From contig MHHQ01000009.1 in NCBI GenBank assembly GCA_001817065.1, positions 16,211-80,210 on the forward strand: a stretch of DNA of 64,000 nt, given 5' to 3'. The notes beneath the pieces were generated by a model. The model ran no database searches. It had not been told where the DNA came from and saw only the letters and a list, made by a program, of their open reading frames with translations. Origin of the DNA: Candidatus Andersenbacteria bacterium RIFCSPHIGHO2_02_FULL_46_16. GTDB taxonomy: Bacteria > Patescibacteriota > Andersenbacteria > UBA10190. A program made the translations under genes and the position numbers. Positions 584-60,193 of this stretch are shown piece after piece (position 1 is the first letter of the stretch; every line of letters starts with the position of its first letter).

Positions 584-1216
584 TTAGTGCTCGTCGTACT
601 CGAGAGAAAAGTCCAGCGCTTCTTCAATGGCGCCTTTAAGTTGAGAGGGGTAATCGATAATTGATTGCGGGTTGCCTTGTTTAAGGAGAGACTCGTTGTG
701 ATAACCCCAGGTGACGCCGATACAAGGAATAAGCACCTGCTGTGCTTCCATAATATCACCTAAGGTGTCGGTAATGAAAACGCATTCAGTCGGCTGAACC
801 TGGTAATGCTGCAGGAGAAGCGAAAATTTGTCTGACTTTAAGTTGGGAAAGTCATTGGAAAAAATCGCGCTAAAATAGCGAGCTAGGTGATGTTTTTGCA
901 GGTATTGCTTAATGGGCGGACTAGTGGTGGAGGAGACCAGAATAGTGGTGAAATTAGCACCGATGAATTCTAGAGCATCCGCCATGCCGGCAATTAGCGG
1001 CCGGTCAATGATACCTTTGGAATATTCAGTAAAGAAATCAAAACCAGCGTGGGATAATTTCTGCAGCATATCCGCTCGGGAACTATCACGAGCAAATCTT
1101 TGGCGAAAAGATTGTTCTGACTCCTGGGGGTTTATCCGAGAGACGATATCGAAACAGAGGCGAAAAGAATCAACGATTACTCCGTCGAAATCTATTAAGA
1201 CAAATTCTGATTGCAT
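584..1216 (-). CDS. HAD-superfamily hydrolase (phosphatase-like)
   Basis: N-terminal LIDFDGVIVDS (DxDG/T motif I of HAD fold), 210 aa. Confidence 0.75.
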   Translation of the reverse strand: MQSEFVLIDFDGVIVDSFRLCFDIVSRINPQESEQSFRQRFARDSSRADMLQKLSHAGFDFFTEYSKGIIDRPLIAGMADALEFIGANFTTILVSSTTSPPIKQYLQKHHLARYFSAIFSNDFPNLKSDKFSLLLQHYQVQPTECVFITDTLGDIMEAQQVLIPCIGVTWGYHNESLLKQGNPQSIIDYPSQLKGAIEEALDFSLEYDEH

Positions 1217-6181: not shown

Positions 6182-7042
6182 TCACTTGATTGAGTCTTTA
6201 ACTAACGCTAACGCACCATAAAATGCTCGATCGTCGCCGAGTGTGGCTGGTTTGATGACGGGTGGGGTGGGTATGAAAGAAGTAAGATTGGTGGTCGCTT
6301 TGATAACCTGACCTAGGGGGATGTCTCTCATCATGGGTCCACCCAGGACTATAACAGAAGGGGACCATAAGAAAGTGATATTGGTTAAACCGTAAGCGAG
6401 CCACTCAGCTAGTGATGACCATACTTGCGGATCCTTAATGGCTTTGGGGTGGCAATTGAATCGTTTGGCGATACTGGCACCGCCGACTAAGTCTTCGAGT
6501 GAAGAAGGGCTATGGCAGTCGGGGCAGAGAGTACCGCTGGCATCGATAATGTGGAAGCCTGGCTCAAAGCCATACGAATTAGCATCAATCTTTTGATTGA
6601 CAATGCGTGCGCCGCCAACACCGGTGCTGATAGTTAAATAGGCAACAATATCGAAATCACGGCCAGCTCCACTGCAGGCCTCACCCAGGCCAGCGAGGGC
6701 AGAGTCATTGATAATGCGAACCGGAACCTGCGTCAGGTTCTCCAGCTCTTCTTGGATAGGATGACCGATCCAGTCGCTTAAATTTGGCGAGGCGGCTAAG
6801 CGACCCGTTTCTTTATTCATGGTTCCGGGCAAGCCAACAACGACACCTTGAATCGGCTGGTCAGCAACTAGAGGAAGGATTTGGGCGGAGAGGGCAGCGA
6901 TAGCTTCGGTAAAAATTGGCGGGGTAGGGCATTTAACAGGCGGGGTAAACGCATCTGGTGAAGACGTGGTGGTAATACGTGTGTTGGTGCCGCCAATATC
7001 AAGAAAGAGAAACATGAATGTAGTATAAAATTCAAATGACAA
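6182..7042 (-). CDS. ROK-family sugar kinase (glucokinase-like)
   Basis: N-terminal LFLDIGGTNTR ATP-binding motif, GLPG, and a CPDCH zinc-motif region typical of the ROK family. Confidence 0.7.
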   Translation of the reverse strand: MSFEFYTTFMFLFLDIGGTNTRITTTSSPDAFTPPVKCPTPPIFTEAIAALSAQILPLVADQPIQGVVVGLPGTMNKETGRLAASPNLSDWIGHPIQEELENLTQVPVRIINDSALAGLGEACSGAGRDFDIVAYLTISTGVGGARIVNQKIDANSYGFEPGFHIIDASGTLCPDCHSPSSLEDLVGGASIAKRFNCHPKAIKDPQVWSSLAEWLAYGLTNITFLWSPSVIVLGGPMMRDIPLGQVIKATTNLTSFIPTPPVIKPATLGDDRAFYGALALVKDSIK

Positions 7043-17879: not shown

Positions 17880-18026
17880 ATGGATGAAACATATAAAAAT
17901 TGCCAAAGTTGCGGGATGCCGATTAAGAAAGATCCGCAAGGCGGGGGAATGAATGTTGATGGAAGCTGTGTACGCCGGCGATTGGTCTTGCGAGGGAAAA
18001 ATGTACATACATATCGCGCTTTTTAG
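17880..18026 (+). CDS. Putative zinc-ribbon protein (PF12674-like), possibly degenerate
   Basis: CQSCGMPIKKDPQGGGMNVDGS matches the N-terminal half of the putative zinc-ribbon domain family. The second Cys pair is missing, and the ORF overlaps the next gene by 26 nt. Confidence 0.35.
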   Translation: MDETYKNCQSCGMPIKKDPQGGGMNVDGSCVRRRLVLRGKNVHTYRAF

Positions 18027-18297
18027 GTGGAAACCGGGTGTCGAGCCCGAGGAAATTAAGCGTGCACTTCGGGAAGTGGAGTCGCTCAAGGACAAAGTAC
18101 CTGGCGTGGTAGATATTAGCACTGGTAGAAACAGTTCTCGCTATTCTGCGGGATACACGCATGTCGTGTTGGTACGTGCCGAAAGCCAAGAAGCAATCGA
18201 TGCGTATCGGCAACATCCCGATCATGTGAACGTTGCCCAAAAGATCGATGCGATGGAGGAACACGGTATTGGTGTGGATTTAATGACGAATACATAG
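18001..18297 (+). CDS. Dabb-family stress-responsive dimeric alpha/beta-barrel protein
   Basis: MYIHIALFRWKPG...VPGVVDISTGRN...YTHVVLV, typical Dabb domain of ~98 aa. Confidence 0.7.
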   Translation: MYIHIALFRWKPGVEPEEIKRALREVESLKDKVPGVVDISTGRNSSRYSAGYTHVVLVRAESQEAIDAYRQHPDHVNVAQKIDAMEEHGIGVDLMTNT

Positions 18298-18642: not shown

Positions 18643-20526
18643 ATGCGATCAGACAAAATAGTAATTGGCGCTAGGCGGATAGGTGAAGGCGAACCAGTAT
18701 TTATAATTGCCGAGGCCTCGATTAATCATAACGGGAGCATCAAACGGGCGCGACAGTTGATCAAAGCGGCAGCTGCTACTGGGGCCGACGCAGTGAAGTT
18801 CCAGAAGCGTAATTTGGAGGAAGTTTACCAGAAAAAACTGTTAGATAATCCCAATAGTGCTGAACAGAAATATCAATATTTGATTCCTTTGCTAAAGGAA
18901 TTTGAGTTGCCGGATGAAGCATTTGTAGAGCTGGAAAAATATGCGGAAGAGCTAGGTATCATTTTTCTGGTTAATGGCTGGGACGTGAAGAGTGTGGGAT
19001 GGATTGAAGATAATTTGCATATTCCGGTACATAAAGTCGGGTCGCCGGACATGACTAATGACGAGCTGCTGGAAGTTATCGCAGCGACCAAGAAGCCGAT
19101 GATTGTTTCAACGGGGATGAGCAGGGAAGAGGAAATTGACCATATGGTGCTGCTGCTGCAAGGTTTAGGCACCAAGTTTGCTTTGATGCATACAAACAAT
19201 ATTTATCCGGCACCGTTTGATGAAATTAATTTGAAGTTTATGGATCGGCTGCGTAAATATGGTCTGCCGGTAGGTTATTCTGGTCATGAGCGAGGGATAG
19301 CGGTAGCGATCGCAGCTGTCGCGCGCGGAGCTGTGATTGTCGAACGTCATTTGACGGTCGACCGTTTACTGGAGGGGCCAGATCACAAAGCCAGTTTACT
19401 GCCAGAGGAGTTTAAGGAAATGGTAACGAGCATTCAACAGGTGGAGAAGTCCTTAGGGGATGGGCAGAAAAGGTTTATTCGGATAGAACAAATGAATCGG
19501 GAGCAACTGGGCAAGAGTATTGTGGCAAAAACTTTTATCAGTGATGGAACGGTCATTACCCGGGACATGTTGATGACCAGGAGTCCCGCGAAGGGTTTAT
19601 CGCCGCAAAGGATGGAAGAAGTAGTGGGGGTCATAGCACCCCGCGATATACCCGCGGGCGAAGCTTTGATGGAGGATGATTTAACAGCGGACGAGATATT
19701 ACAAACATTCAACGGACATGGTATACCATTGAAATGGGGACCAGTGGTTCGGCTGCGTGAGGATTTTGAACGATATATGGGTTTTGAACCCAAGGTCTTT
19801 GAGTTTCATTTAAGTGATAAAGATTTGGATGAGGAAGTGCCCCAGGGTAAATTTCAGCAAGAGGTGGTCGTGCATGCGCCAGAGTATATGCACCGGCTGT
19901 ATTTGAATCCGGCGACGGAGAATAAGGAAGAGCGGCAAATTGCCATTAAGACATTACAGCGCAGTATCCAGGTAGCGGAGCAGCTGGCCGAATCGTTCAA
20001 GGGACCGGCGAAGTTAGTGATTCATCCTTGCGGCGTAACCTTGCAACCGGCGACGGATGCGGCAAAGCTGCTAGAAATATTTGTGGATACACTGCAGCAG
20101 CTAAAGACGAATAATGTTGAACTGCTGCCGGAGAATATGCCGCCGCGGCCCTGGGTATTTGGGGGAGAGTGGGTAGGTAATATATTTCTGCTGGATGAAG
20201 AAATTAAACGGTTTCTAAATCAGACGGGACATAAGATGTGTTTTGACACATCACATGCAGCACTGGCGTGTAATGCTGCCGGTTATGATTTAATAAGAAT
20301 GGTACGAGAATTAAAACCTTATATTCGCCATTTGCATGTGTCTGATGCTAGCGGGATTGGGGATGAAGGATTACAAATTGGTGAAGGGACAATTGATTGG
20401 GCGAAGGTATTTAGGGAGTTAGAAGGTTATCAGTATACGATGGTACCAGAAATATGGCAGGGACATTTGCATGGCGGAAAAGGTTTTTTGCAGGGAATGG
20501 AGCATTTGCGTAAATATTGGCAATAA
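18643..20526 (+). CDS. N-acetylneuraminate/nonulosonate synthase (NeuB/PseI/LegI family) fused to a C-terminal xylose-isomerase-like TIM-barrel (sugar-phosphate isomerase/epimerase) domain
   Basis: NeuB N-terminal motifs (IIAEASINHNGS, AVKFQ, SGHERG) and a SAF domain, then a ~270-aa extension ending in HLHVSDASGIGDEGLQIGEGTIDW, typical of AP-endonuclease-2/xylose-isomerase-like barrels. 627 aa versus ~350 aa for a typical NeuB. Confidence 0.8.
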   Translation: MRSDKIVIGARRIGEGEPVFIIAEASINHNGSIKRARQLIKAAAATGADAVKFQKRNLEEVYQKKLLDNPNSAEQKYQYLIPLLKEFELPDEAFVELEKYAEELGIIFLVNGWDVKSVGWIEDNLHIPVHKVGSPDMTNDELLEVIAATKKPMIVSTGMSREEEIDHMVLLLQGLGTKFALMHTNNIYPAPFDEINLKFMDRLRKYGLPVGYSGHERGIAVAIAAVARGAVIVERHLTVDRLLEGPDHKASLLPEEFKEMVTSIQQVEKSLGDGQKRFIRIEQMNREQLGKSIVAKTFISDGTVITRDMLMTRSPAKGLSPQRMEEVVGVIAPRDIPAGEALMEDDLTADEILQTFNGHGIPLKWGPVVRLREDFERYMGFEPKVFEFHLSDKDLDEEVPQGKFQQEVVVHAPEYMHRLYLNPATENKEERQIAIKTLQRSIQVAEQLAESFKGPAKLVIHPCGVTLQPATDAAKLLEIFVDTLQQLKTNNVELLPENMPPRPWVFGGEWVGNIFLLDEEIKRFLNQTGHKMCFDTSHAALACNAAGYDLIRMVRELKPYIRHLHVSDASGIGDEGLQIGEGTIDWAKVFRELEGYQYTMVPEIWQGHLHGGKGFLQGMEHLRKYWQ

Positions 20527-20581
20527 GAATAATGAGTAAGATGATATTTTAAAAATAATTTTTACTAGATAGTCTAATAAT

Positions 20582-21370
20582 ATGTATAAGCTGAGAAAAT
20601 TTTATCCACCGGGATTTGATCCGCAGCAGTATTGGGAGGATAGATATGCACAGGAGCACATTGCAGGTCGGAGCAGCGATGAGTTTCGTAAACAAGGTTT
20701 TTGGCCACTAATGGAGCGTCATTTGCCGCGGGATAAAAAAGTGTTAGATGCTGGTTGCGGAGTCGGGGGATGGATTGTTTTTTTGAAGGAGGAGGGTTAT
20801 GACATCGAAGGCATTGATAACGCAGCGCGCATGGTTCGAGCAATGACGGAGTATGATCCTGACCTAAAGGTGAAGATAGCGGCGATTGATGCTATCCCCT
20901 ATCCAAACAACTGTTTTGGGGGAGTGGTAGCGGTCGGTACGCTAGAGTATGTAGAAGATAAGGTGGATGAGGCATTAAGAGAAGTGAATCGTGTTTTGAT
21001 GCCCAATGGAATATTCTTTTTGGAGGTACCAATTATCAATGGCTTGCGGCGATTTTTTTATATTCCATTGAAAGATCTAGAGAGGTGGCTCAAGGGAAAA
21101 AATAATCGACCGGTTTTCGCTAATTATTTCTTCGGTCGTCAGGAGTTAAGAAGGAAACTAGACGAGGCTGGTTTTACGGTTATTACAGAGCAGCCGCATG
21201 AACTGCCAGATGATCATAGTCATTATGGTCTGTACGTGGATTGGAAATGGTTACGAGGAAGCCAGCCTTATCGGCTAAATATTGTTGGGTTAGCCATAAA
21301 AAAATTAGCCAACATTGTATCACCATGGATAGCTTCAACAGGAATGGTGATAGTCGCTAAGAAGCGTTGA
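20582..21370 (+). CDS. Class I SAM-dependent methyltransferase
   Basis: VLDAGCGVGGW motif I. 262 aa. Confidence 0.7.
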   Translation: MYKLRKFYPPGFDPQQYWEDRYAQEHIAGRSSDEFRKQGFWPLMERHLPRDKKVLDAGCGVGGWIVFLKEEGYDIEGIDNAARMVRAMTEYDPDLKVKIAAIDAIPYPNNCFGGVVAVGTLEYVEDKVDEALREVNRVLMPNGIFFLEVPIINGLRRFFYIPLKDLERWLKGKNNRPVFANYFFGRQELRRKLDEAGFTVITEQPHELPDDHSHYGLYVDWKWLRGSQPYRLNIVGLAIKKLANIVSPWIASTGMVIVAKKR

Positions 21371-21395
21371 CTAATTTTTACTTGGTAACATCAGA

Positions 21396-21491
21396 TTAAA
21401 AACCTCCGCCAAAAACAGCGAGACCGACCGTAAGTGCAATGAAAACAAGTAGAGCGAAAGTTAGCCACTGCATCGTATTTTGCTCATTCAT
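21396..21491 (-). CDS. Small (31 aa) single-TM peptide, hypothetical
   Basis: Strong SD (gggaggtgatcc) 7 nt upstream of the ATG. Translation MNEQNTMQWLTFALLVFIALTVGLAVFGGGF. Confidence 0.3.
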   Translation of the reverse strand: MNEQNTMQWLTFALLVFIALTVGLAVFGGGF

Positions 21492-21716
21492 GAAGGATCA
21501 CCTCCCGTAGTTTATCTATAAAAGATAGATAACTAGTAATTATTAGTTTACCTCAATTTGTTTGAAGTGGCGAATAAGGTGTTTCCATAGACTTGAAGAG
21601 GTAAAGTGAGAGAGAAAGTAGTCAAATGCGGTGCAACTAAAGATGCGCTATACTTGACTTATAGACGATAACGCGTAGTCTTCTACTTTATTAGTATACG
21701 TCTTTAGCTTGAGCAA

Positions 21717-22469
21717 ATGAGCAGAGAAAACAAAAGTCTAAAAGGCAAGGTGGTGGTACTGACCGGTGGTGTCGGATTTTTAGGTCAGTACTTTAGTCGC
21801 TTATTGCGGGAAGTCGGGGTAGTCGTGATAGTGACTGATGTGGCTAAAGAAGCTGATGTGATAATGGACGTTACTGATCAAGACTCAATTGATCAAGGAT
21901 TAAAGGAGATTAGGCAGGAACAAGGGAAGATTGATGTGGTTATAAATAACGCAGCCATCGATCCTAAGTTTGATATTGGGGCGGCGCAGAATAAATACGA
22001 GTTTGTAAATTATCCAGAGGAGGCCATGCAGCAAAGTGTTAATGTTAATTTGCTGGGGACCTGGCGGGTTTGTAAGACAGCGATAAAAATTATGTGCGAG
22101 CAAGGCTTTGGCAATATTGTGAATGTAGCTTCGTTTTATGGAGTAACACCGCCGCGACAGGAAATCTATCCGACCGGCACAGAAAAACCGGTTGATTATC
22201 CGGTGACGAAAGCTGGAGTGATTATGCTGAGCAGACACATTGCGTCGCAGTTTGGCCGGGATGGGATCAGGTGTAATGTTTTAGCGCCGGGGGGAGTGGT
22301 TAGGGAACAGGCCAAGGATTTTCAGGAGAAATACAGTGAACACACGTCGTTAGGGCGGATGTCTACACCAGAGGAAGTAAGTGATGCGTTATTGTTTCTG
22401 GTAAGTGATAATTCTCGCGGGATGACCGGTGAAGTGCTGGTAGTGGACGCTGGCTGGCGATCTAGATAA
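21717..22469 (+). CDS. SDR-family oxidoreductase
   Basis: TGGVGFLG Rossmann motif, NNAAI, and a catalytic Y..K region. Confidence 0.8.
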   Translation: MSRENKSLKGKVVVLTGGVGFLGQYFSRLLREVGVVVIVTDVAKEADVIMDVTDQDSIDQGLKEIRQEQGKIDVVINNAAIDPKFDIGAAQNKYEFVNYPEEAMQQSVNVNLLGTWRVCKTAIKIMCEQGFGNIVNVASFYGVTPPRQEIYPTGTEKPVDYPVTKAGVIMLSRHIASQFGRDGIRCNVLAPGGVVREQAKDFQEKYSEHTSLGRMSTPEEVSDALLFLVSDNSRGMTGEVLVVDAGWRSR

Positions 22470-23411
22470 TTAAACAGAAGGCCAATGGGCCGGATCGACT
22501 AAGTTGGGATCGGCAATGGCTAGGTTGGATAGTTTGCCCAATACTGGTGGGCTAAGAGGGCCTTCTTTGATAGCAGACAGGGCGCTATGTAAATGCCGTG
22601 GTTCGATGGTGCCAATTAATATAGTGGAGACAGCGGGATGGGAGGTGGCAAAGCGGATGGCTAAGCTGGGCAAGTCGGTGGATAATTTTTTAGCTATGGC
22701 AGCGGCTTGGGCGGAATTTTCTTTTAGGGGATCTAAGGCGGGAGGAAGGTGCCAGACGGAGGAGGTGAGAGCTCCTTTTAATAAAACTGACCGATTAATG
22801 ATGCCAATATTACTGGCAAAAGCAGCGGGAAAGACTTGAGCTGCCATGCGTTGGTCAAGAATGCTGTAAGCAGTTTGAATGGTAGAGAAAAAGTTGGTTT
22901 CAATGGCAGCGAGGGGTGCATCGGTGCCGCGTGTGGCAATACCGATATGCTGTATTTTCCCCTCATCCTTTATACGTCGCAAAATATCTATTAATTCTCC
23001 ACGTTCCAACTGCTCGGCGGATCCGCCATGCAGCTGTAACAGCTGGAGGGAATCGGTGCGCAGGCGCCTAAGGCTTTCTTCTACCTCGCTCCTGATAGCC
23101 TGCTCCAATTCCGGGCCGCGCGGATCCTGGCCTTTTTCTAAAAATTGAGCACACTTGGTGCCAATAACAATTTGAGGCAGGCGAGCTATGCCAGATCGTC
23201 CGATACGTTCTTCTGCGACGCCATAGCTATGGGCAGTATCGAAATAGGTGATACCTAAGTCTACAGCGGTTTTAAGGATGCGATCTGCTTCTTTGTCAGT
23301 GGGAAGAGTAGTGACTCCAATACCATAAGGCAGACCAATCTCAACAGTTCCAAGACCAATGGAAGAAACATTTAATTTGGTGGAACCTAAGGGGTGACTG
23401 GTTAATGCCAT
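22470..23411 (-). CDS. Aldo/keto reductase family oxidoreductase
   Basis: GLGTVEIG...YFDTAHSYG signature. 313 aa. Confidence 0.8.
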   Translation of the reverse strand: MALTSHPLGSTKLNVSSIGLGTVEIGLPYGIGVTTLPTDKEADRILKTAVDLGITYFDTAHSYGVAEERIGRSGIARLPQIVIGTKCAQFLEKGQDPRGPELEQAIRSEVEESLRRLRTDSLQLLQLHGGSAEQLERGELIDILRRIKDEGKIQHIGIATRGTDAPLAAIETNFFSTIQTAYSILDQRMAAQVFPAAFASNIGIINRSVLLKGALTSSVWHLPPALDPLKENSAQAAAIAKKLSTDLPSLAIRFATSHPAVSTILIGTIEPRHLHSALSAIKEGPLSPPVLGKLSNLAIADPNLVDPAHWPSV

Positions 23412-23483
23412 ATTTGCAGCGTAGCATATTGAGAGAAATTACTATCTATTCAGAGTCCAAATGCGTATGCGTGAAGGCAGAGG

Positions 23484-24127
23484 TTAAGTTAATAGACGAA
23501 GTGGCACTTTAATAATAATTTTTTGCACAAAAGTAGTAGAGGGATGAGAAAAACCAGGCCGGTGGGCGTCATAGGGGAAAAGAATTGCGACATAGCGGGG
23601 CAGCATGGGAATAGATTGGGCGGCTGGTGTGGGATTGTATAGGACATAGTCTTCTTGGTCATTCCGCGAGACTGATATTAGACCGTCGACGGGAACTACT
23701 TGAATGATTTCGCTACCCGATAAACAAATATGGACATCTATAGATGTCACATTATGAAATGCCACTCTTAAATAAACGGGTGGCGGCGCGGGGGACCCCC
23801 ACCGAGCGCCTGCAGGCTGCCCGCCTGGCAGGCCGAAGCCGTCGGGTGGGGGTGCAGCGCCGACAGGGCCCGTCACTATATTTGTGGCATTTCATAATGT
23901 GACTTCCATATGTGACGCATATGTGACTCATATTTATCAGAGCTGGACTTTGTGGTGGGTATGGTTTTTAAATAAGCTTTAATGGTTGGGAGATTCGGAT
24001 TAATAAAAGTGTTGTTTTGATCGGAGAGCGGTATCTGAGTAAGCCAGGTAAAAACGGTGCGCCAAGCGGGATGTGGCAGTTGTTCATACACCTGGGCAAG
24101 GTTGTCCAGATCGCCAATGATAGACAT
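23484..24127 (-). pseudogene. YhcH/YjgK/YiaL (DUF386, NanQ-like) family gene disrupted by a MITE insertion
   Basis: The upstream fragment (24127->~23906: MSIIGDLDNL...KYESHMRHI) and downstream fragment (~23745->23484: ...HICLSGSEII...AILFPYDAHRPG...KIIIKV) together match the ~155-aa DUF386 layout (MIIG.L.NL, (E/K)xHxxYIDIQ, FFP.D.H.P, KVVVKV). They are separated by the 160-nt TIR element and lie in different frames. Confidence 0.5.
23737..23910. mobile_element. MITE family 2, copy 1 (TIR-flanked GC-rich core) inserted in the DUF386 gene
   Basis: 20-bp perfect terminal inverted repeats gtcacattatgaaatgccac (23745-23764) / gtggcatttcataatgtgac (23884-23903) flank a GC-rich core homologous to the element at 56639-56864. 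Confidence 0.5.
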
Positions 24128-24171
24128 AGGTTTGTCTTTAGGATAACCATTTAACTAGTAAAAGGAATATA

Positions 24172-25086
24172 TTGGTAGCAACACGGCTTGCGGTGCTGGT
24201 CAATCAATGGTATAGAGAACGCATGAGTCAGCAAAGCGATAATCCAAAGAGGGAACTGATAGAAACGGTGGCGATTATTCCGGCGCGGGGAGGCAAACAG
24301 AGCATCCCCTACAAAAATTTACAAAAACTTGGGGGGAGGACTCTGTTGGCATGGGCGGTAGAAGTGGCCTTAGCGGCTGAGAGCGTGGATGCTGTGTTAG
24401 TATCAACGGAAGACAAGAAGATAGCCCAAGAAGCAGAAAGGTTGGGAGCAATAGTAGTTCCCCGGCCAAAAAAATATTCGCAACCTCAGAGCAGCGATGC
24501 CGGTTGGTATTCCCATGCGGTGGACTGGATGGAAACAGAAAAAGGCTGGAAACCGGAATTATTGGTTAATTTACGGCCAACTAGTCCACTGCGGTTCGTG
24601 TATGATGTGGAGGCGATGGTTAAGTATATGAAGAACAATCCGCAGGCGGATGGTCTAAAAAGCGTTGTCTCGGCGCCTATACATCCTTATAAAATGTGGG
24701 TATTTGCTGGTGAAAACAGTGTCAATAATGATGAGTCAGGCTTATCAGGATCACAGGACGAAGATAGTGGCCGGGAATTAGCGGTTGGTGGGGCAGGGAC
24801 CCTTAAAGGAGTCTTTGATAATGATTTTCGCCGGCTGCATGGACCAGACCACCCCCGACAAAAAATACAAAAAAGCTGGCCGGTTTATTGGCAGGATGGG
24901 CAGGTAGATATTACACGTCGGCGTTTTGTTTTGCGCCCAGAATGTTTACAGTACAATAATGTTTGGGGAGAAAACTTGCATGGCTATGTGCTGGATCCGC
25001 GAACGAGTACCGACTTAGATACACTGGAGGATTTTCACCGAGCAGAAAAAATATATAAAGAGCTGCAAAAAGAACGAGGCAATTAA
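24172..25086 (+). CDS. Acylneuraminate (CMP-nonulosonate) cytidylyltransferase family protein (NeuA-like)
   Basis: VAIIPARGGKQSIPYKNL...VLVSTED...A..LGA pattern of CMP-NeuAc/CMP-Kdo synthetase-like enzymes. A likely later start lies at MSQQSD (24223). Confidence 0.7.
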   Translation: MVATRLAVLVNQWYRERMSQQSDNPKRELIETVAIIPARGGKQSIPYKNLQKLGGRTLLAWAVEVALAAESVDAVLVSTEDKKIAQEAERLGAIVVPRPKKYSQPQSSDAGWYSHAVDWMETEKGWKPELLVNLRPTSPLRFVYDVEAMVKYMKNNPQADGLKSVVSAPIHPYKMWVFAGENSVNNDESGLSGSQDEDSGRELAVGGAGTLKGVFDNDFRRLHGPDHPRQKIQKSWPVYWQDGQVDITRRRFVLRPECLQYNNVWGENLHGYVLDPRTSTDLDTLEDFHRAEKIYKELQKERGN

Positions 25087-25204: not shown

Positions 25205-25525
25205 TTATTTTTGACGAAGCTCGTCTTCCAAATCTTTCATTCCCGCTGGCCCTTTTTGAGCGGCTTGTTCAATCTTGGAGCGAAGGTTAGCTGGCATCTT
25301 GGCTAGAAGCCCCTGCATTAAGTCTTCTGCTGTCACTGTGTCGTGATCGACGAGACGTGCTTGGTTTTCAGCCGCCTTGGTGAGTTGCTTTCGTACGGTT
25401 CCCTTCAACGCACTGGGTACGGGTGCTTGGCTGAGGGCTTTTTCTAAAGCTTGGGAAGCTGTGGGGTCCCAAGAGAGTGTTTTAGTGACACTTGGAGAGC
25501 TTTTTTTGGAAAATAATTTAAACAT
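25205..25525 (-). CDS. PCP_red-like domain protein (PF08369-like), hypothetical
   Basis: LSWDPTASQALEKALSQAPVPSALKGTVRKQLTKAAENQARLVDHDTVTAEDL resembles the protochlorophyllide-reductase 57 kDa subunit C-terminal domain that also occurs as stand-alone proteins. Confidence 0.35.
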   Translation of the reverse strand: MFKLFSKKSSPSVTKTLSWDPTASQALEKALSQAPVPSALKGTVRKQLTKAAENQARLVDHDTVTAEDLMQGLLAKMPANLRSKIEQAAQKGPAGMKDLEDELRQK

Positions 25526-25647: not shown

Positions 25648-26379
25648 ATGATAAAACAATCAACAATGAAGGGACAAATTATAGTGCAGGGACGGAGGTA
25701 TGAATATACACTGCGGCGAAATAGGCGAGCTAGGCGTTTGATACTAAAAGTTGGTCCGGTCGGGGACATAGTGGCAGTTATGCCGTGGCGTGTGTCCAGG
25801 AAAGTAGCGGAAGAATTTGTTTTAAGTAAGGCAAAGTGGCTGGATCAAGCCATAAAGAAACAAGAAGAAAAACCTGTGCAGCCATTGGTTGAATTTAGAT
25901 CGGGGGCTTGGCTGCCAATATTGGGGGACATGATACAGCTGTTGGTGACGGTCGAAAAAGATCGTCAGCGGACAAGTTTTATAGAAGAGGGTAATATGCT
26001 GCGAGTGGCGGTGTCACAATTCGCAGGAGTCAAGAAGGCGCTAGCCAAGTGGTATTGGACGAGAGTGAAAGGATATGTTAAAAAACGGGCAGATGATCTG
26101 GCCGATCAGATGGGGTTACGAATAGATAAGATTGTGATATCAAGTGCCAAGTCCCAATGGGGCAGTTGTATAAAAAGCAAAGGGAGGATTTCTATCCAGT
26201 GGAGACTAGCTCAAGCACCGCTCGGTGTGATTGATTATGTCATTACCCATGAAGTAATGCATTTAAAGTGCAGCGGTCACGGGAAGGATTTTTGGCAGGG
26301 AGTGGAAGAGGTCTGTCCGGATTATCGGGAACGGCGGCGGTGGCTGAAGGAGAACGGACATCGATTGTATTGGCGATGA
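25648..26379 (+). CDS. YgjP/DUF45-family metal-dependent hydrolase (SprT-like zinc metallopeptidase fold)
   Basis: C-terminal HEVMHLKCSGHGKDFW (HExxH...H) and an N-terminal basic region typical of DUF45. Confidence 0.7.
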   Translation: MIKQSTMKGQIIVQGRRYEYTLRRNRRARRLILKVGPVGDIVAVMPWRVSRKVAEEFVLSKAKWLDQAIKKQEEKPVQPLVEFRSGAWLPILGDMIQLLVTVEKDRQRTSFIEEGNMLRVAVSQFAGVKKALAKWYWTRVKGYVKKRADDLADQMGLRIDKIVISSAKSQWGSCIKSKGRISIQWRLAQAPLGVIDYVITHEVMHLKCSGHGKDFWQGVEEVCPDYRERRRWLKENGHRLYWR

Positions 26380-45779: not shown

Positions 45780-46526
45780 TTAACGATGGTCATGCAGGAA
45801 GTGTCCTACTTCCGTACCATACATACGCTGCAGGGTTTCGTTAGTCAGGACTTTGTGGGGAGCACCGGCGCAAAGCAGTCTTCTGTTTAAACAGAGTACT
45901 TGGTCGGCATAATTCATAACGATTTGCAGCTCATGACTGATGAGAACCATGGTTAATTTCTCTTCATGTTGGATGCGAGAGAGGAGGGTATAGATGGTGT
46001 CTTGTCCTTCGGCATCAATGCCGGCAGCTGGTTCATCCAGAAGAAGTACTTTAGGATGGTCCATTAGACTGTAAGCGAGAATAATACGCTGCAGCTGACC
46101 GCCTGATAAAACACTAAGTCGACTGTTGATCAAGTGCCTAGTATTAGTTTTTGCAAGGAGGTCGTGCATATGTCGTTTTTCGATGGGGCTTAAACCCAGG
46201 GGGCGTGGTGATTTTAGAGAAAAGAGACCGGCTACAGTCAATGGGAACTGGTGGTCAATGTTGATGTATTGAGGGATATAGGAAACTAAGGGAGCGATTT
46301 TGTGATATTGGTCATGGTTGGTATCCATTATTTCGACCGTCCCGCTTTGTTTAGGCAACAGATTTAAGATGCATTTGATCAGAACGGATTTGCCGGCACC
46401 ATTAGGTCCAATAATAGCGGTAACTGAGCCAATGGGCACTTGAAAAGATATACCATCGATAATGCGGTGTTTGTCCAGCTCCACAACTAAGTTTTGCACA
46501 TTTAACGCCAGGGTCGGGGTGGTCAT
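45780..46526 (-). CDS. Metal ABC transporter ATP-binding protein (ZnuC-like)
   Basis: Walker A GPNGAGKSVL, signature LSGGQLQR, Walker B LLLDEP. 248 aa. Confidence 0.85.
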   Translation of the reverse strand: MTTPTLALNVQNLVVELDKHRIIDGISFQVPIGSVTAIIGPNGAGKSVLIKCILNLLPKQSGTVEIMDTNHDQYHKIAPLVSYIPQYINIDHQFPLTVAGLFSLKSPRPLGLSPIEKRHMHDLLAKTNTRHLINSRLSVLSGGQLQRIILAYSLMDHPKVLLLDEPAAGIDAEGQDTIYTLLSRIQHEEKLTMVLISHELQIVMNYADQVLCLNRRLLCAGAPHKVLTNETLQRMYGTEVGHFLHDHR

Positions 46527-46563
46527 AAAAAATAATTGTTATTCTTTATGTTACACTAAGGTG

Positions 46564-48297
46564 ATGGTGGATGATAATAATAAAAACGTATTAGTGGTTT
46601 TGGCGGAGCAGGGGCTGATAAAAGGCGAGAGTCAGATTAGTGACATCACGCAGCAATTAGATGGTGGTGCCACCCTTGACCAAGTATTAGTGGAAACAGA
46701 TTTGGTTGAGCCGGAGGCTTTGGCCAAAGTCAGAGCGCAAGTGGCGGGGCTGCCTTATGTGGATTTACGGGAGAAACAAATACCTAAGAACGTACTTGAT
46801 ATTATTCCGGAATCAACGGCACGCGGGCACATGATCATCGCTTATGAGCAGACTGATAACGTGGTACGAGTAGCTATGTCTGACCCAAGCGATCGACAAA
46901 TTGTCGAATTTATCCGAAAGAAGGTGGATCGACCAGTGGAGGTAGGTGTCGCATCGGCGGGGGCGGTGAGGAACACATTAGGTAATTATCAGGAGAGTCT
47001 CGAGGCGGAATTGGATGATGTGGTAAGTAAGGAACTAAAATTGGTAAATGAAATAGTGAATGATTTAGGCAAGGCAGCGGAAGACCTACCAATCGTCAGG
47101 ATTACTCAAGCAATTTTAAAACATGCCATAGTGGAGGGAGCGTCAGATATTCACATTGAGCCAACAGATAAGGACGTCATTATCAGATACCGGGTGGACG
47201 GCATTTTACACGATATGTTGGTATTACCCCGGGCAGTTTTAGCTGGATTAGTAGCGCGGATAAAAGTGTTGAGTAATCTGAAAATAGATGAACATCGGTT
47301 ACCGCAGGATGGTCGATTTATGATTGAGTCGGACGAATATAAAGTGGCTTTCCGTGTTTCCACCTTACCGGTGTTTGATGGTGAAAAGGTAGTAATGCGT
47401 TTGTTGGATGAGTCGGGTAAAAAGTTGAGTTTGGATGATATCGGTATTAGACCGGCCGCTTTAGAACTGATGCGACGGATTATAAAACGTCCACATGGCA
47501 TGGTGTTAGTAACTGGCCCAACTGGATCTGGTAAAACAACCACGTTGTACGCGGCCATGAAAGAAGTTAATACGGCGGATGTTAATATCAGCACTATAGA
47601 AGATCCGGTGGAATACCGAATGCCGCGGATAAATCAAACACAGGTTAAACCGCAGATTGGCCTAACTTTTGCTAATGGATTAAGAGCGCTGGTTAGGCAA
47701 GATCCTGACGTTATTATGGTCGGCGAGATTAGAGATGAAGAGACAGCTTCCTTGGCGATCAATGCTGCCTTAACCGGACATTTGGTTCTGACTACTTTGC
47801 ATACCAACAGTGCAGCTGGCGCGATACCGCGGATGCGAGACATGAAGGTTGAGGCTTTCTTGTTGGCCTCAACCGTAAATTTGATAATGGCACAACGGTT
47901 AGTGCGGAAATTGTGCGTGAAGTGTCGCAAGGAGCGAAAGCTAGACGCGCAGGTTATTGGAGAAATAAAGAAGGAGTTTAATAGTGAAGAAATTTTCAAA
48001 ACCTTAGTAAGGGAAAAAGTAGTGAAAGAGGGCTCAGGCTGGAAGGATGTTGTAATTTACCAGGCAGTGGGATGTAAGAGGTGCCACGATGGATATAAAG
48101 GCCGTATAGGGATTTATGAAACTATGGAGATAACACCGGAGATACAGAAGATGATTAAGCCAAGCGTAACAGCAGAACAAATAGAACAAGCGGCCAGAGA
48201 AAATGATGGCATGGTAAGTATGTTAGAAGATGGGATAATTAAAACGGTGGAAGGTACTACTACGCTGGAAGAGGTGCTTAGGGTAGCGCGAGAGTAG
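46564..48297 (+). CDS. pilB: Type IV pilus assembly ATPase PilB (GspE family)
   Basis: GspE N-terminal domain, Walker A GPTGSGKTTT, Asp box, His box and a C-terminal tetracysteine motif (CVKC...CKRC). Start set at ATG 46564 with an SD (aaggtg), to avoid overlap with the convergent ZnuC-like gene. Confidence 0.85.
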   Translation: MVDDNNKNVLVVLAEQGLIKGESQISDITQQLDGGATLDQVLVETDLVEPEALAKVRAQVAGLPYVDLREKQIPKNVLDIIPESTARGHMIIAYEQTDNVVRVAMSDPSDRQIVEFIRKKVDRPVEVGVASAGAVRNTLGNYQESLEAELDDVVSKELKLVNEIVNDLGKAAEDLPIVRITQAILKHAIVEGASDIHIEPTDKDVIIRYRVDGILHDMLVLPRAVLAGLVARIKVLSNLKIDEHRLPQDGRFMIESDEYKVAFRVSTLPVFDGEKVVMRLLDESGKKLSLDDIGIRPAALELMRRIIKRPHGMVLVTGPTGSGKTTTLYAAMKEVNTADVNISTIEDPVEYRMPRINQTQVKPQIGLTFANGLRALVRQDPDVIMVGEIRDEETASLAINAALTGHLVLTTLHTNSAAGAIPRMRDMKVEAFLLASTVNLIMAQRLVRKLCVKCRKERKLDAQVIGEIKKEFNSEEIFKTLVREKVVKEGSGWKDVVIYQAVGCKRCHDGYKGRIGIYETMEITPEIQKMIKPSVTAEQIEQAARENDGMVSMLEDGIIKTVEGTTTLEEVLRVARE

Positions 48298-48403
48298 CAG
48301 TAGCGCGCTAATCAAGACTGGCACATTGTGTTAAGCTGGTGATAAATGGTGGAAATGACGGGCGGCGTAGGGTTTTGTCGTAAGGGTTTTTATAAGTAGG
48401 TTT

Positions 48404-51206: not shown

Positions 51207-51228
51207 CTGTTGAGAAATATTTATTGCT

Positions 51229-51876
51229 ATGGAGCGTGGCATAGGGCAACAGGGGCAAAGTAGGCAAAGGGGTCTGACAATAATGGAAATATTAGTGGTG
51301 GTATCTATCAGCTCGATAGTACTAATGGCACTACTACGTTTTTTAGTGGCCGGTTATCCTTTGTCAAAGACAATGGTGTTGCAGCAGCGCTCAACAGAAA
51401 CGGCCAGGGTTAATTTGAAACGGATAGTGAAAAGTTTACGCGAGGCTCGCCATTCTGATACTGGGGCGTATCCGTTGGTAGCAACCGAGCCGCAAAGGAT
51501 TGTTTATTATGCTAATGTGGATAGCGATCCGGCGACAGAAAAAGTTCGCTTGGAATTGTCGGGTAGCGACTTGGTCCGGGGCGTAACTAAGCCGACTGGA
51601 GACCCATTAATATATGACCAAAACAATGAGGTGACAGCGGTGATTATCGCTACGGTCAGGAATGGGACAGAGAAAGTATTTAGTTATTACACTGGAGAGT
51701 TCCCGGTGGATACAGGCGAGTTAACGCCAACGGATTTAACTGAGGTTAAATATATTGCATTCAGTTTACTTATTGATGCCGATCCGGCGGTTGAGCCACC
51801 CGCAATTCAGGTAAAGTCACAAGTACAACTGCGTAATTTGAAGACAAATTTAGGTCAAGTGGTGGAGGCGCCGTAA
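51229..51876 (+). CDS. Minor pilin-like prepilin-type protein
   Basis: QRG|LTIMEILVVVSISSIVLMALL N-terminal methylation-type helix. 215 aa. Confidence 0.6.
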   Translation: MERGIGQQGQSRQRGLTIMEILVVVSISSIVLMALLRFLVAGYPLSKTMVLQQRSTETARVNLKRIVKSLREARHSDTGAYPLVATEPQRIVYYANVDSDPATEKVRLELSGSDLVRGVTKPTGDPLIYDQNNEVTAVIIATVRNGTEKVFSYYTGEFPVDTGELTPTDLTEVKYIAFSLLIDADPAVEPPAIQVKSQVQLRNLKTNLGQVVEAP

Positions 51877-51988
51877 AAGTTACCGACGGGGACTATGATG
51901 TCTGACAGAGGCGGAGGACGAAGGGTAGGCAGAGGTGAAGGAGGGTCAGATGTTTTTTATTGTGACGCAATAACTTATAATAACTGCT

Positions 51989-54823: not shown

Positions 54824-54848
54824 TTTAGCAGATAGATCGACAGATATT

Positions 54849-60171: not shown

Positions 60172-60193
60172 GCGGTAAGACATTAAATTAGGT

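What the first reader, a model, noticed from the sequence alone, without database searches (positions are those of the whole stretch)
18643..25086. Partial nonulosonic-acid (sialic-acid-like sugar) biosynthesis cluster
A NeuB-family synthase, a SAM methyltransferase, an SDR, an aldo/keto reductase (opposite strand), a DUF386/YhcH (NanQ-like) remnant and a NeuA-like CMP-sugar synthetase cluster together. This suggests synthesis and activation of a 9-carbon keto-sugar for surface glycoconjugates, possibly modified (methylated). Combined with the PMT-type GT in the pilus locus, pilin or surface-protein glycosylation is a speculative but testable link. No UDP-GlcNAc 2-epimerase or PseB/PseC/LegB/LegC-type genes are present, so the pathway is incomplete or non-canonical.
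Basis: partly seen in the sequence, partly recalled or inferred. Interest (0 to 1): 0.6.

Follow-up and report, generated by a model that had tools for sequence, protein, structure and literature searches.

The report
Conserved sialic-acid-like sugar gene module
Six neighbouring genes in a small uncultured (Patescibacteria/Andersenbacteria-like) bacterium look like a self-contained kit that builds, modifies and CMP-activates a sialic-acid-like sugar using an uncharacterised two-in-one synthase, and one accessory gene has been broken here by a 168-bp mobile element.

Summary
They are: a NeuB-family synthase, a SAM methyltransferase, a PtmA-like SDR, an aldo/keto reductase (minus strand), a split DUF386/YhcH gene, and a NeuA/PseF-like cytidylyltransferase.

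1. The synthase is a 627-aa fusion: NeuB + SAF + a C-terminal xylose-isomerase-like/Endo-IV-like metal TIM barrel. This TIM subfamily is almost always fused to NeuB.
2. The six genes form a syntenic module in about 30 Andersenbacteria-type MAGs. The fusion plus a CTP_transf_3 gene also recurs in actinobacterial cell-wall polysaccharide loci and in several other phyla. NeuC was seen in only one of those loci, and no adjacent PseB/C- or LegB/C-type gene set was seen.
3. The YhcH "remnant" is a recent clean insertion of a multicopy MITE with a TA duplication. Removing it restores a 157-aa ORF.

"Partial cluster" is therefore probably wrong. I read it as a complete, non-canonical route to a CMP-activated, probably non-aminated (Kdn-like), epimerised and methylated ulosonic acid.

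The role of the fused TIM domain is inferred, not shown. A phosphatase for a 9-phospho intermediate is my favoured reading; a sugar isomerase is the alternative. No link to the PMT-type transferase or to pili is supported.

Verdict: a new variant of a known kind, of moderate interest.

The parts
18643..20526 (+). Fused ulosonic-acid synthase, 627 aa: NeuB domain (nt 18757-19470), SAF domain (19516-19683), C-terminal MJ1311/Endo-IV-like metal TIM barrel (about 19696-20523; Pfam hit 19861-20517)
   Evidence: Pfam and NCBIfam. Alignment to N. meningitidis NeuB keeps the metal and PEP residues but has Ser at Arg314. The TIM domain models with pLDDT 82.7. It resembles ketose 3-epimerases and Endo IV equally well. 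Its only real PDB sequence relative is MJ1311. Relatives are 59-82% identical in CPR and 38% identical end-to-end to the actinobacterial CBS-NeuB-SAF-TIM proteins.
20582..21370 (+). Class I SAM-dependent methyltransferase (Methyltransf_23/11)
   Evidence: It lies directly downstream of the fusion in all Andersenbacteria loci. A methyltransferase also follows the fusion in Aquihabitans and is fused to it in the 959-aa P0403. These methyltransferases are not clear orthologues.
21717..22469 (+). Short-chain dehydrogenase/reductase, PtmA/PRK09186-like
   Evidence: Conserved in the module, in either orientation.
22470..23411 (-). Aldo/keto reductase. Closest solved relatives are AKR11C1-like proteins and L-galactose dehydrogenases
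   Evidence: Always adjacent to the SDR in the module.
23484..24127 (-). DUF386/YhcH (NanQ-like) gene, interrupted
   Evidence: Two fragments match DUF386 profile positions 2-68 and 67-144. Intact 150-190-aa orthologues are present in 24 related loci. Excising the insert restores a 157-aa ORF.
23741..23908 (.). 168-bp MITE inside yhcH, with about 25-nt terminal inverted repeats, a GC-rich foldback core, and a TA target-site duplication at 23739-23740 and 23909-23910
   Evidence: A second copy of a longer subtype lies at about 56648-56861. The core sequence occurs in 20 metagenome contigs with different flanks.
24172..25086 (+). CMP-ulosonic-acid synthetase-like cytidylyltransferase (CTP_transf_3). 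Probable start is the ATG at 24223
   Evidence: The PARGG, RPTSPLR and DLDTLED motifs are visible in the alignment to 6ifd. It is 28% identical to the cytidylyltransferase next to the Gulosibacter fusion.

Best explanation
This is a self-contained biosynthetic module of an Andersenbacteria-like (CPR/Patescibacteria) bacterium. Its product is a CMP-activated, modified, sialic-acid-like 3-deoxy-2-ulosonic acid.

Proposed steps:

1. The NeuB+SAF part of the fusion condenses PEP with a common aldose, probably a sugar 6-phosphate such as Man-6-P. This would follow the animal/Bacteroides Neu5Ac-9-P/Kdn-9-P synthases, which it resembles more than it resembles N. meningitidis NeuB.
2. The fused His-rich metal TIM barrel carries out the adjacent step. 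My favoured reading is hydrolysis of the 9-phosphate, replacing the usual KdsC-type HAD phosphatase.
3. YhcH helps deliver the right ring or anomeric form. It is dispensable and is broken here by a MITE.
4. The NeuA-like enzyme makes the CMP-sugar.
5. The AKR and the SDR together invert one carbinol centre through a keto intermediate, as ElaA/ElaC do at C8 of CMP-legionaminic acid.
6. The methyltransferase adds a methyl group, probably as an O-methyl ether.

The product would be donated to a surface glycoconjugate by a transferase encoded elsewhere.

Shown: gene content, domain architecture, conservation, synteny and catalytic-residue conservation. Inferred: substrate identity, the TIM-domain reaction, the order of steps and the acceptor.
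For: - Families and intact catalytic motifs.
- Six-gene synteny in about 30 loci, with YhcH present in 24.
- Purifying selection where computable.
- The TIM subfamily has 184 clusters at E<1e-30. All eight longer (368-773 aa) representatives scanned carried NeuB and/or SAF N-terminal to the TIM domain. The length distribution of the best 150 clusters at about 620-680 and 730-777 aa.
- The fusion plus CTP_transf_3 is the only ulosonate-related pair in Gulosibacter and Kocuria Wzy/Wzz/GT loci. It recurs with GFO and/or SDR oxidoreductases and methyltransferases in Elusimicrobia, Uhrbacteria and other MAGs.
- A NeuB-SAF-TIM-MTase single polypeptide exists.
- No amino-sugar tailoring genes in the 64-kb window. 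The N-acetyl-contacting Arg314 of NmNeuB is Ser here, and Ser314 is kept in at least 98% of 121 CPR-type fusions.
- The NeuB domain scores 227 bits against human NANS and 150 bits against NmNeuB. The NANS sequence was recalled from memory; only its C-terminus was validated, against 1wvo.
- TIM-domain invariants are His-rich (H389, H411, H538, H565, H608 plus D535, D568, E575, E603). The first Glu of the epimerase tetrad is Gln in 157/157 CBS-type relatives.
- The nearest PDB relative, MJ1311, is listed as an Endo IV homologue. The best NCBIfam matches are nfo and CbiR, both weak.
- Precedent for an oxidoreductase + SDR + CTP-transferase trio that epimerises a CMP-NulO: PMC13656337.
- Streptomyces teichulosonic acid is a Gal+Kdn polymer, often methylated, made by a cluster with only NeuA- and NeuB-like genes: PMC11481543, PMC3479208.
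Against: - No enzyme here has been assayed.
- The TIM domain resembles ketose 3-epimerases as much as it resembles Endo IV by fold. All family-level HMM hits for it are weak.
- One Endo-IV ligand position (the H231 equivalent) is an invariant Gly. Two more vary in actinobacterial relatives.
- The distant locus L034 carries the fusion together with a KdsC/Kdn-9-P-phosphatase-like HAD, so the TIM domain need not be the phosphatase.
- L040 has an Epimerase_2 gene near the fusion. L041, L042 and L044 have NAD-dependent epimerase/dehydratases next to it. Some family members may therefore use NDP-sugar-derived or N-acetylated substrates.
- Loss of Arg314 is also seen in the (recalled) human NANS sequence, which uses ManNAc-6-P. 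It is weak evidence against an N-acetyl sugar.
- An AKR stands in place of the GFO oxidase of ElaABC, so the epimerisation idea is an analogy only.
- No glycosyltransferase for a CMP-sugar was identified in the window.
Confidence: 0.45

Rival explanations
1. Same self-contained pathway, but the fused TIM barrel is a sugar or sugar-phosphate isomerase/epimerase. It would make the aldose acceptor (for example Fru-6-P or Glc-6-P to Man-6-P, or GlcNAc-6-P to ManNAc-6-P) just before condensation. Any phosphate would be removed by a generic phosphatase.
For: - Pfam AP_endonuc_2 is mostly populated by sugar isomerases and epimerases.
- The top Foldseek hits include D-tagatose, D-psicose and L-ribulose 3-epimerases and UlaE.
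- The window protein keeps an E-D-H-E set (E497, D535, H565, E603).
- L034 has a separate KdsC-like phosphatase beside the fusion.
- A HAD phosphatase and a ROK kinase exist elsewhere in the window.
Against: - The first Glu of the tetrad is Gln in all 157 CBS-type relatives and in 14 of 33 CPR-type relatives. This is hard to reconcile with the two-Glu acid/base mechanism of ketose 3-epimerases.
- Five invariant His residues are more than a mononuclear isomerase site needs.
- The only convincing sequence relative is the Endo-IV-like MJ1311.
Confidence: 0.25
2. This is the tail end (synthase and CMP-activation, plus decorations) of a canonical amino-nonulosonate pathway (Neu5Ac, legionaminic or pseudaminic acid). 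The upstream genes (NeuC, or dehydratase/aminotransferase/acetyltransferase/hydrolase) lie elsewhere in the genome.
For: - The best NCBIfam model is NeuB_NnaB.
- The SDR is PtmA-like, a family typical of legionaminic acid clusters.
- L001 has two NAD-dependent epimerase/dehydratase genes 4-6 kb upstream of the module.
- L040 has Epimerase_2 near a fusion homologue.
Against: - None of those genes is in the 64-kb window.
- No aminotransferase or acetyltransferase is adjacent to the fusion in any locus examined.
- Scores are below the NeuB and PseI equivalog cut-offs.
- Arg314 is replaced.
- The actinobacterial loci contain only the fusion and a cytidylyltransferase.
Confidence: 0.15
3. The product is an 8-carbon (Kdo-like) or other non-9-carbon 3-deoxy-ulosonic acid. 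It would be made by a NeuB-type enzyme from a pentose or pentose phosphate.
For: - The acceptor specificity is unknown.
- UDP-glucose dehydrogenase and epimerase/decarboxylase-like genes flank fusion homologues in L041, L042 and L044, so UDP-pentoses are conceivable precursors.
- The cytidylyltransferase has weaker but real KdsB similarity.
Against: - The synthase is not a KdsA/DAHP-type enzyme (E about 1e-5 against 4e-95 for NeuB).
- The cytidylyltransferase is clearly closer to NeuA/PseF.
- The YhcH orthologue's best model is the N-acetylneuraminate anomerase.
Confidence: 0.07
4. The module is decaying or non-functional in this genome, because yhcH is disrupted.
For: The yhcH reading frame is broken by a 170-nt insertion.
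Against: - The other five ORFs are full length and 77-82% identical to L005.
- dN/dS is about 0.07-0.09 where computable.
- The insertion is a clean, apparently recent MITE event.
- No YhcH ORF was recovered in the AKR-to-cytidylyltransferase interval of a few otherwise complete related loci.
Confidence: 0.04

Closest known systems
Bacterial NeuABC sialic acid pathway (N. meningitidis/E. coli K1: NeuC, NeuB, NeuA)
   Same: A NeuB-fold PEP-condensing synthase with a SAF domain and conserved metal and PEP residues, followed by a CTP_transf_3 CMP-sugar synthetase.
   Different: - No NeuC.
- The synthase scores below the NeuB equivalog cut-off and has Ser at Arg314.
- It carries an extra C-terminal metal TIM barrel.
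- The module adds an AKR, an SDR, a methyltransferase and YhcH.
Phosphorylated route: animal NANS/NANP/CMAS and Bacteroides thetaiotaomicron Kdn-9-P synthase + KdsC-type Kdn-9-P phosphatase + CMP-Kdn synthetase (from general knowledge)
   Same: - The synthase domain is more similar to (recalled) human NANS than to NmNeuB.
- No NDP-sugar tailoring genes are needed.
- A related locus (L034) pairs a stand-alone NANS-like NeuB with a KdsC/Kdn-9-P-phosphatase-like HAD.
   Different: - There is no HAD phosphatase in the module. An Endo-IV/MJ1311-like TIM barrel is fused to the synthase instead.
- Use of a phosphorylated substrate is not demonstrated.
Actinobacterial teichulosonic-acid (Kdn) clusters, e.g. 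S. coelicolor SCO4879-SCO4881 (NeuE-like, NeuA, NeuB)
   Same: - A minimal NeuA + NeuB gene pair inside a cell-wall glycopolymer locus, with no NeuC.
- The polymer contains Kdn, often methylated.
- Gulosibacter, Kocuria and Aquihabitans loci with the CBS-NeuB-SAF-TIM fusion have the same layout.
   Different: - I could not verify that SCO4881 itself has the fused architecture.
- The CPR proteins lack the N-terminal CBS pair and are only 38% identical.
- The CPR module adds an AKR, an SDR and YhcH.
ElaA/ElaB/ElaC of Acinetobacter baumannii KL49 (and the PtmF/LegF/PtmA gene trios of legionaminic acid loci)
   Same: Two NAD(P)-dependent oxidoreductases, one a KAR-like SDR, sit next to a CTP-transferase. 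They are proposed to epimerise a CMP-nonulosonate through a keto intermediate. L034, L040, L042 and L044 carry GFO and/or SDR genes next to the cytidylyltransferase.
   Different: - The partner of the SDR here is an aldo/keto reductase, not a Gfo/Idh/MocA enzyme.
- The SDR scores below the PtmA cut-off (119 against 350 bits).
- The substrate and the carbon acted on are unknown.
MJ1311 (PDB 3wqo) and endonuclease IV: xylose-isomerase-like TIM barrels with multinuclear metal sites
   Same: - Same fold.
- Profile E 3e-15 to MJ1311, with shared HAP, HPG, EN, FDxxH, HxHxxD and IGEG motifs.
- MJ1311 is listed as an Endo IV homologue.
   Different: - The domain is fused to NeuB.
- The position matching Endo IV H231 (His in MJ1311) is an invariant Gly.
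- The nfo model scores 28 bits against a 130-bit cut-off.
- No DNA-repair context.
NanQ/YhcH N-acetylneuraminate anomerase
   Same: The intact orthologue in L001 passes the YhcH/YjgK/YiaL subfamily cut-off, and its best model is the anomerase.
   Different: - It scores below the equivalog cut-off (103 against 160 bits).
- It sits in a biosynthetic rather than a catabolic context.
- The copy in this window is insertionally inactivated.

Membership tests
NeuB / nonulosonic-acid synthase family | Full-length NeuB TIM-barrel domain followed by a SAF (antifreeze-like) domain | tested here: met
   PF03102 255.7 bits over profile positions 1-241 of 241. PF08666 39.4 bits.
NeuB / nonulosonic-acid synthase family | Metal ligands and PEP/catalytic residues of N. 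meningitidis NeuB (E25, K53, Q55, K129, S132, S154, N184, Y186, S213, H215, E234, H236, D247; roles from the literature, recalled) | tested here: met
   Aligned to E24, K52, Q54, K131, S134, S156, N185, Y188, S213, H215, E234, H236 and D247. All are at least 98% conserved in 121 fusions.
NeuB / nonulosonic-acid synthase family | Arg314 from the SAF domain, which contacts the N-acetyl group of ManNAc | tested here: not met
   Arg314 aligns with Ser314 in an invariant SPAKG motif.
NeuB / nonulosonic-acid synthase family | Equivalog-level score for N-acetylneuraminate synthase (TIGR03569) or pseudaminic acid synthase (TIGR03586) | tested here: not met
   318.8 against a 399.65 cut-off, and 214.1 against 340.25.
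Canonical Neu5Ac / Pse / Leg gene clusters | Upstream enzymes in the cluster: hydrolysing 2-epimerase (NeuC/LegG), or 4,6-dehydratase + aminotransferase + N-acetyltransferase + nucleotidase | tested here: not met
   None among the called ORFs of at least about 130 aa in the 64-kb window. The rest of the genome was not available.
CMP-nonulosonate synthetases (CTP_transf_3: NeuA/PseF/LegF) | CTP_transf_3 domain with the N-terminal PARxGSK-type loop, the TSPLR motif and the C-terminal DxDT motif | tested here: met
   PF02348 56.4 bits against a 22.6 cut-off. The motifs IPARGGKQ, RPTSPLR and DLDTLED are seen in the alignment to 6ifd.
CMP-nonulosonate synthetases (CTP_transf_3: NeuA/PseF/LegF) | Closer to NeuA/PseF than to KdsB, and an equivalog-level score | tested here: inconclusive
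   Closer to PseF (E 2e-25) and CMP-NeuAc synthetase 6ifd (4e-22) than to KdsB (2e-14; PDB 9e-7). However, 89.6 bits is below the PseF cut-off of 205.7.
Endonuclease IV / MJ1311-like multinuclear-metal TIM barrels | Nine metal-ligand positions of Endo IV (H69, H109, E145, D179, H182, H216, D229, H231, E261; numbering recalled) | tested here: not met
   Eight positions are occupied in the window protein (H411, H461, E497, D535, H538, H565, D574/E575, E603). The H231 equivalent is an invariant Gly576. H461 and E497 become S/N and Q in the CBS-type relatives. The nfo model scores 28.5 against 129.65 bits.
Ketose 3-epimerase / sugar-phosphate isomerase members of AP_endonuc_2 | Conserved Glu-Asp-His-Glu metal and catalytic tetrad, with both Glu acting as acid/base | tested here: inconclusive
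   The tetrad is present in the window protein. Its first Glu is Gln in 157/157 CBS-type relatives and in 14/33 CPR-type relatives. Fold similarity is TM about 0.65, the same as to Endo IV.
NanQ/YhcH anomerase | Intact DUF386 protein scoring above the family cut-offs | tested here: not met
   The window copy is split by a MITE. The orthologue in L001 passes the subfamily cut-off (101.3 against 45.5) but not the anomerase equivalog cut-off (103.4 against 160).
ElaABC-type CMP-nonulosonate epimerisation system | Gfo/Idh/MocA oxidase + KAR-like SDR reductase + CTP-transferase encoded together | tested here: not met
   The SDR and the CTP-transferase are present, but the second oxidoreductase is an AKR. 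GFO versions occur next to fusion homologues in L034, L040, L042 and L044.

The most novel reading that the evidence does not exclude
The NeuB-SAF-TIM fusion defines an uncharacterised, widespread class of bifunctional enzyme. It occurs in CPR, Actinomycetes, Elusimicrobia, Chloroflexota-type MAGs, Acidobacteriota and others, with 184 clusters at 50% identity. In this reading, an Endo-IV/MJ1311-like multinuclear-metal TIM barrel has been recruited as a small-molecule phosphoesterase. It would act either as an ulosonate-9-phosphate phosphatase or as an NDP-sugar hydrolase, channelled to a NANS-like synthase. In Andersenbacteria the module would then yield a methylated, epimerised Kdn-type sugar for the cell surface of an episymbiotic, genome-reduced bacterium.
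Probability: 0.3. Interest if true: 0.7.

Novelty: new variant of a known kind. Interest (0 to 1): 0.55.

Why it matters
CPR/Patescibacteria have very small genomes and few biosynthetic pathways. A six-gene sugar module kept in synteny in about 30 Andersenbacteria-type loci, with dN/dS of about 0.07-0.14 against the closest relative where computable, implies that the product is important. It is probably important for the cell surface through which these bacteria meet hosts, phages and the environment. My full-text searches returned no paper combining nonulosonic or sialic acids with this group.

The fused synthase is the more general point. The architecture is common in metagenomes and in cultured actinobacteria. 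It sits in cell-wall polysaccharide loci with only a cytidylyltransferase as partner. It is not mentioned in a large NulO-synthase phylogeny paper. If the TIM domain is a phosphatase or hydrolase, it is a new activity for that fold and a missing step of Kdn-type sugar biosynthesis. Gulosibacter and Kocuria would offer a tractable experimental system.

Tried and rejected
- **Rfam:** the whole window at gathering thresholds, and the MITE copy at 56.6 kb at E<=1, gave no family. No tRNAs were found.
- **Look-up of the window's own fusion protein (P0001):** not on record.
- **NCBIfam on the isolated TIM domain:** only weak, mixed hits (nfo, IolE, CbiR, IolO).
- **Literature:** the searches combining nonulosonic or sialic acid with CPR, Patescibacteria or Andersenbacteria found nothing. 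The MJ1311 structure paper is not held, so its statement about Endo IV ligands is from memory.
- **SCO4881:** I could not establish whether it has the fused architecture.
- **Methyltransferase orthology:** tested between the window, Aquihabitans and the P0403 fusion. They share only generic class I similarity, so orthology is rejected.
- **Genes inserted inside the module in some MAGs:** a DsbA/VKOR-like pair, a membrane protein, a malic-enzyme-like gene and GFO-like genes (identities read from the sequences, not scanned against Pfam). They are variable and judged unrelated to the core.
- **Promoter and terminator scan:** no signal above the shuffles.
- **dS against L005:** saturated for several genes, so those dN/dS values are missing.
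- **PMT/pilus link:** rejected for lack of any positional or biochemical support.

Full report
**What is there**

The interval 18643-25086 holds six genes.

- 18643-20526 (+) encodes a 627-aa protein with three domains: NeuB (aa 39-276, E 5e-76), SAF (aa 292-347), and an AP_endonuc_2 "xylose isomerase-like TIM barrel" (aa 407-625, E 2e-24).
- Downstream are a class I SAM methyltransferase (20582-21370, +) and an SDR (21717-22469, +). The SDR's best NCBIfam models are PRK09186 and, more weakly, PtmA.
- An aldo/keto reductase lies on the minus strand (22470-23411).
- A DUF386/YhcH gene lies on the minus strand in two frames (24127-23484).
- A CTP_transf_3 cytidylyltransferase follows (24172-25086, +; probable start 24223).

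The flanks are housekeeping genes: an RNase J-like beta-CASP protein, TspO, a Dabb-domain protein, a PCP_red-like small protein, YgjP, EF-P and sigma-70. The called ORFs of the 64-kb window hold no NeuC, dehydratase, aminotransferase or acetyltransferase genes, and no CMP-sugar transferase was identified.

The synthase matches NeuB_NnaB (319 bits, E 4e-95) and PseI (214 bits). It matches DAHP-type synthases only at E about 1e-5. The cytidylyltransferase matches PseF (E 2e-25) and the Vibrio CMP-NeuAc synthetase 6ifd (E 4e-22) better than KdsB (2e-14; PDB 9e-7). So this is not a Kdo pathway of the KdsA/KdsB type.

Neither protein reaches an equivalog cut-off. The alignment to N. meningitidis NeuB keeps every metal, PEP and catalytic position. 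It replaces Arg314, which contacts the N-acetyl group of the substrate, with Ser inside an invariant SPAKG motif.

**It is a conserved module, not a leftover**

The fusion protein has relatives of 58-90% identity (plus its own 100% record), all with the same three domains. Where a source names them, they come mostly from Candidatus Andersenbacteria MAGs.

In 33 genome loci and several metagenome contigs, the order fusion, methyltransferase, SDR, AKR, YhcH, cytidylyltransferase is kept. It usually continues into the PCP_red-like and YgjP genes. Occasional unrelated insertions occur. An intact YhcH gene of 150-190 aa is present in 24 of these loci.

Against the closest relative (L005, 82% identity for the fusion), dN/dS is 0.07-0.14 wherever dS is not saturated. 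The window therefore most likely comes from an Andersenbacteria-like member of the Patescibacteria.

**The YhcH "remnant"**

Alignment with L005 shows a 170-nt insertion. It consists of a 168-bp element (23741-23908) plus a duplicated TA. The element has about 25-nt terminal inverted repeats and a GC-rich foldback core. Removing the element and one TA restores an uninterrupted 157-aa DUF386 ORF.

A longer subtype sits at about 56648-56861, also flanked by TA, just upstream of the PMT-type transferase gene. The 32-nt core occurs in 20 metagenome contigs, several per assembly, with unrelated flanks. This is a multicopy MITE, and the inactivation of yhcH looks recent. The gene is evidently dispensable, which fits an accessory role such as anomerase or ring-form supply.

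**The fused TIM barrel**

An AlphaFold model of aa 352-627 is confident (pLDDT 82.7). Foldseek against the PDB ranks ketose 3-epimerases and endonuclease IV side by side (TM about 0.65).

By sequence profile, the only real PDB relative is MJ1311 (3wqo, E 3e-15). It shares the motifs HAP, HPG, EN, FDxxH, HxHxxD and IGEG. MJ1311 is tabulated as the M. jannaschii Endo IV homologue (PMC2770678). From memory, its structure paper reported that all nine Endo IV metal ligands are conserved.

An exhaustive profile search found 184 clusters (50% identity) at E<1e-30. All eight longer (368-773 aa) representatives I scanned carry NeuB and/or SAF N-terminal to the domain, four of them full-length with NeuB. 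The length distribution shows two main classes: about 620-680 aa, and about 730-777 aa with an extra N-terminal stretch in which a CBS domain was detected in two of four scanned.

Across 239 full-length domains the invariant residues are E387, H389, D394, H411, D535, H538, H565, D568, E575, G576, E603, W605 and H608. E497 is Gln in all 157 CBS-type proteins, and H461 is Ser or Asn there.

The first Glu of the epimerase-type Glu-Asp-His-Glu tetrad is therefore not required family-wide. The site is also unusually rich in His. I read this as favouring a metal-dependent hydrolase (phosphoesterase) over a two-base epimerase. It is an inference, and HMM hits to nfo, CbiR, IolE and others are all weak.

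**Context in other phyla**

The CBS-type fusions are actinobacterial and 38% identical end-to-end to the window protein.

- In Gulosibacter molinativorax and Kocuria massiliensis, the fusion lies directly after a CTP_transf_3 gene inside a Wzy/Wzz/glycosyltransferase locus. No other sugar-tailoring enzyme is present.
- In Aquihabitans it is followed by a methyltransferase, and the cytidylyltransferase is fused to a Wzy domain.
- The 620-aa type occurs in Uhrbacteria, Yanofskybacteria, Elusimicrobia, Nitrospinota, Dehalococcoidia, Anaerolineae, Acidobacteriota and others.
- Its neighbours repeatedly include a cytidylyltransferase, a Gfo/Idh/MocA oxidoreductase and/or an SDR, methyltransferases, and sometimes NAD-dependent epimerase/dehydratases, UDP-glucose dehydrogenase or (once) Epimerase_2.
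- One protein joins NeuB, SAF, TIM and methyltransferase domains in 959 aa.

The invariant partnership is fusion plus cytidylyltransferase. This argues that the fusion alone converts common metabolites into the acid that is then CMP-activated.

**Which sugar?**

The absence of amino-sugar tailoring genes points to a deaminated, Kdn-like product, as does the minimal actinobacterial loci. The loss of Arg314 points the same way only weakly, because the recalled NANS, which uses ManNAc-6-P, also lacks it.

Streptomyces cell walls carry a Gal-Kdn teichulosonic acid, often methylated. The responsible cluster contains NeuA- and NeuB-like genes SCO4880 and SCO4881 (PMC11481543, PMC3479208, PMC13011467). 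I could not verify that SCO4881 is a fusion.

The NeuB-SAF part of the window protein scores 227 bits (37% identity) against human NANS, 150 bits (30%) against NmNeuB, and 257 bits against a stand-alone NeuB in locus L034. L034 also encodes a KdsC/Kdn-9-P-phosphatase-like HAD.

NANS and the Bacteroides Kdn-9-P synthase use sugar 6-phosphates (general knowledge). A phosphorylated route, with the TIM barrel as the phosphatase, is therefore the most economical reading. The co-occurrence of the fusion with a HAD phosphatase in L034 cuts against it. The isomerase alternative stays open.

**The redox pair and the methyltransferase**

In Acinetobacter KL49, a Gfo/Idh/MocA enzyme (ElaA), a KAR-like SDR (ElaC) and a CTP-transferase (ElaB) are proposed to convert CMP-legionaminic acid to its C8 epimer through a keto intermediate (PMC13656337). 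The same gene trio (PtmF, LegF, PtmA) marks legionaminic acid loci.

Several fusion-containing loci carry GFO and/or SDR genes beside the cytidylyltransferase. In L034 they are a single GFO-SDR protein. Andersenbacteria have an AKR in the GFO position. Its nearest solved relatives include L-galactose dehydrogenases and a DON 3-epimerase chain.

I therefore propose an oxidise-then-reduce epimerisation of the (CMP-)sugar, followed or preceded by methylation. This is analogy, not membership.

**Verdict**

It is probably wrong in calling the cluster partial, and it is unsupported in linking the cluster to the PMT/pilus locus.

The module is a new variant of a known kind of system (CMP-ulosonic acid biosynthesis). 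It is built around an uncharacterised but widespread fused synthase. The exact product, the reaction of the fused domain and the acceptor remain to be shown.

Noticed in passing
window 23741-23908 and about 56648-56861; loci L045-L064: A multicopy MITE family of 168 bp (short subtype) to about 214 bp. It has about 25-nt terminal inverted repeats (TAGATGTCACATTATGAAATGCCAC...), a GC-rich foldback core and TA target-site duplications. One copy disrupts yhcH. The other sits just upstream of the PMT-type glycosyltransferase gene. The core occurs in 20 JGI metagenome contigs with different flanks. No Rfam match for the 56.6-kb copy.
   Followed up: yes
window 21396-21491 (-), within the 21371-21716 gap: A 31-aa hydrophobic ORF (MNEQNTMQWLTFALLVFIALTVGLAVFGGGF) with a strong Shine-Dalgarno sequence. 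The surrounding approximately 190 nt are about 95% identical to L005, more conserved than the flanking coding DNA. It may be a small membrane peptide gene wedged between the methyltransferase and the SDR in the closest relatives only.
   Followed up: partly
whole window 1-64000: GC skew is strongly positive (+0.17 to +0.33) in every 2-kb bin, with most genes on the + strand. There are no tRNA genes and no Rfam family at gathering thresholds in 64 kb.
   Followed up: no
window 25205-25525 (-) and 25648-26379 (+): A 106-aa protein with a weak PCP_red (protochlorophyllide reductase C-terminal-like) match and a YgjP-like metallopeptidase follow the module in about 20 Andersenbacteria loci. Their function, and any relation to the module, is unknown.
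   Followed up: partly
window 17953-18297 (+); L044 2166-2465: A Dabb (stress-responsive A/B barrel) gene lies directly next to the ulosonic-acid genes, both here and in an Uhrbacteria locus. This may be coincidence or an unrecognised accessory protein.
   Followed up: no
L040 5828-8707 (protein P0403): A 959-aa single polypeptide that combines NeuB, SAF, the TIM barrel and a class I methyltransferase domain. It sits next to CTP_transf_3, GFO, SDR and a 628-aa Epimerase_2 protein.
   Followed up: partly
L034 1-17848: A high-GC "Patescibacteria group" contig carries both the fusion and a stand-alone NANS-like NeuB. It also has a KdsC/Kdn-9-P-phosphatase-like HAD, a GFO-SDR fusion, a TPP enzyme, a PanB-like/methyltransferase fusion and a Zn-ADH. 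This looks like a much larger ulosonic-acid tailoring cluster.
   Followed up: partly
window 6182-7042 (-) and 584-1216 (-): A ROK-family sugar kinase and a HAD phosphatase lie 12-18 kb from the module. They could supply or process sugar phosphates, but nothing ties them to it.
   Followed up: no
window 46462-63069: A type IV pilus locus: a PilB-like ATPase, PilC, prepilin-like proteins with N_methyl motifs (one of 784 aa), PilM, and a PMT-family GT-C transferase at 56972-58510. Two large ORFs (54849-56486 and 58783-60171) have no Pfam match.
   Followed up: partly
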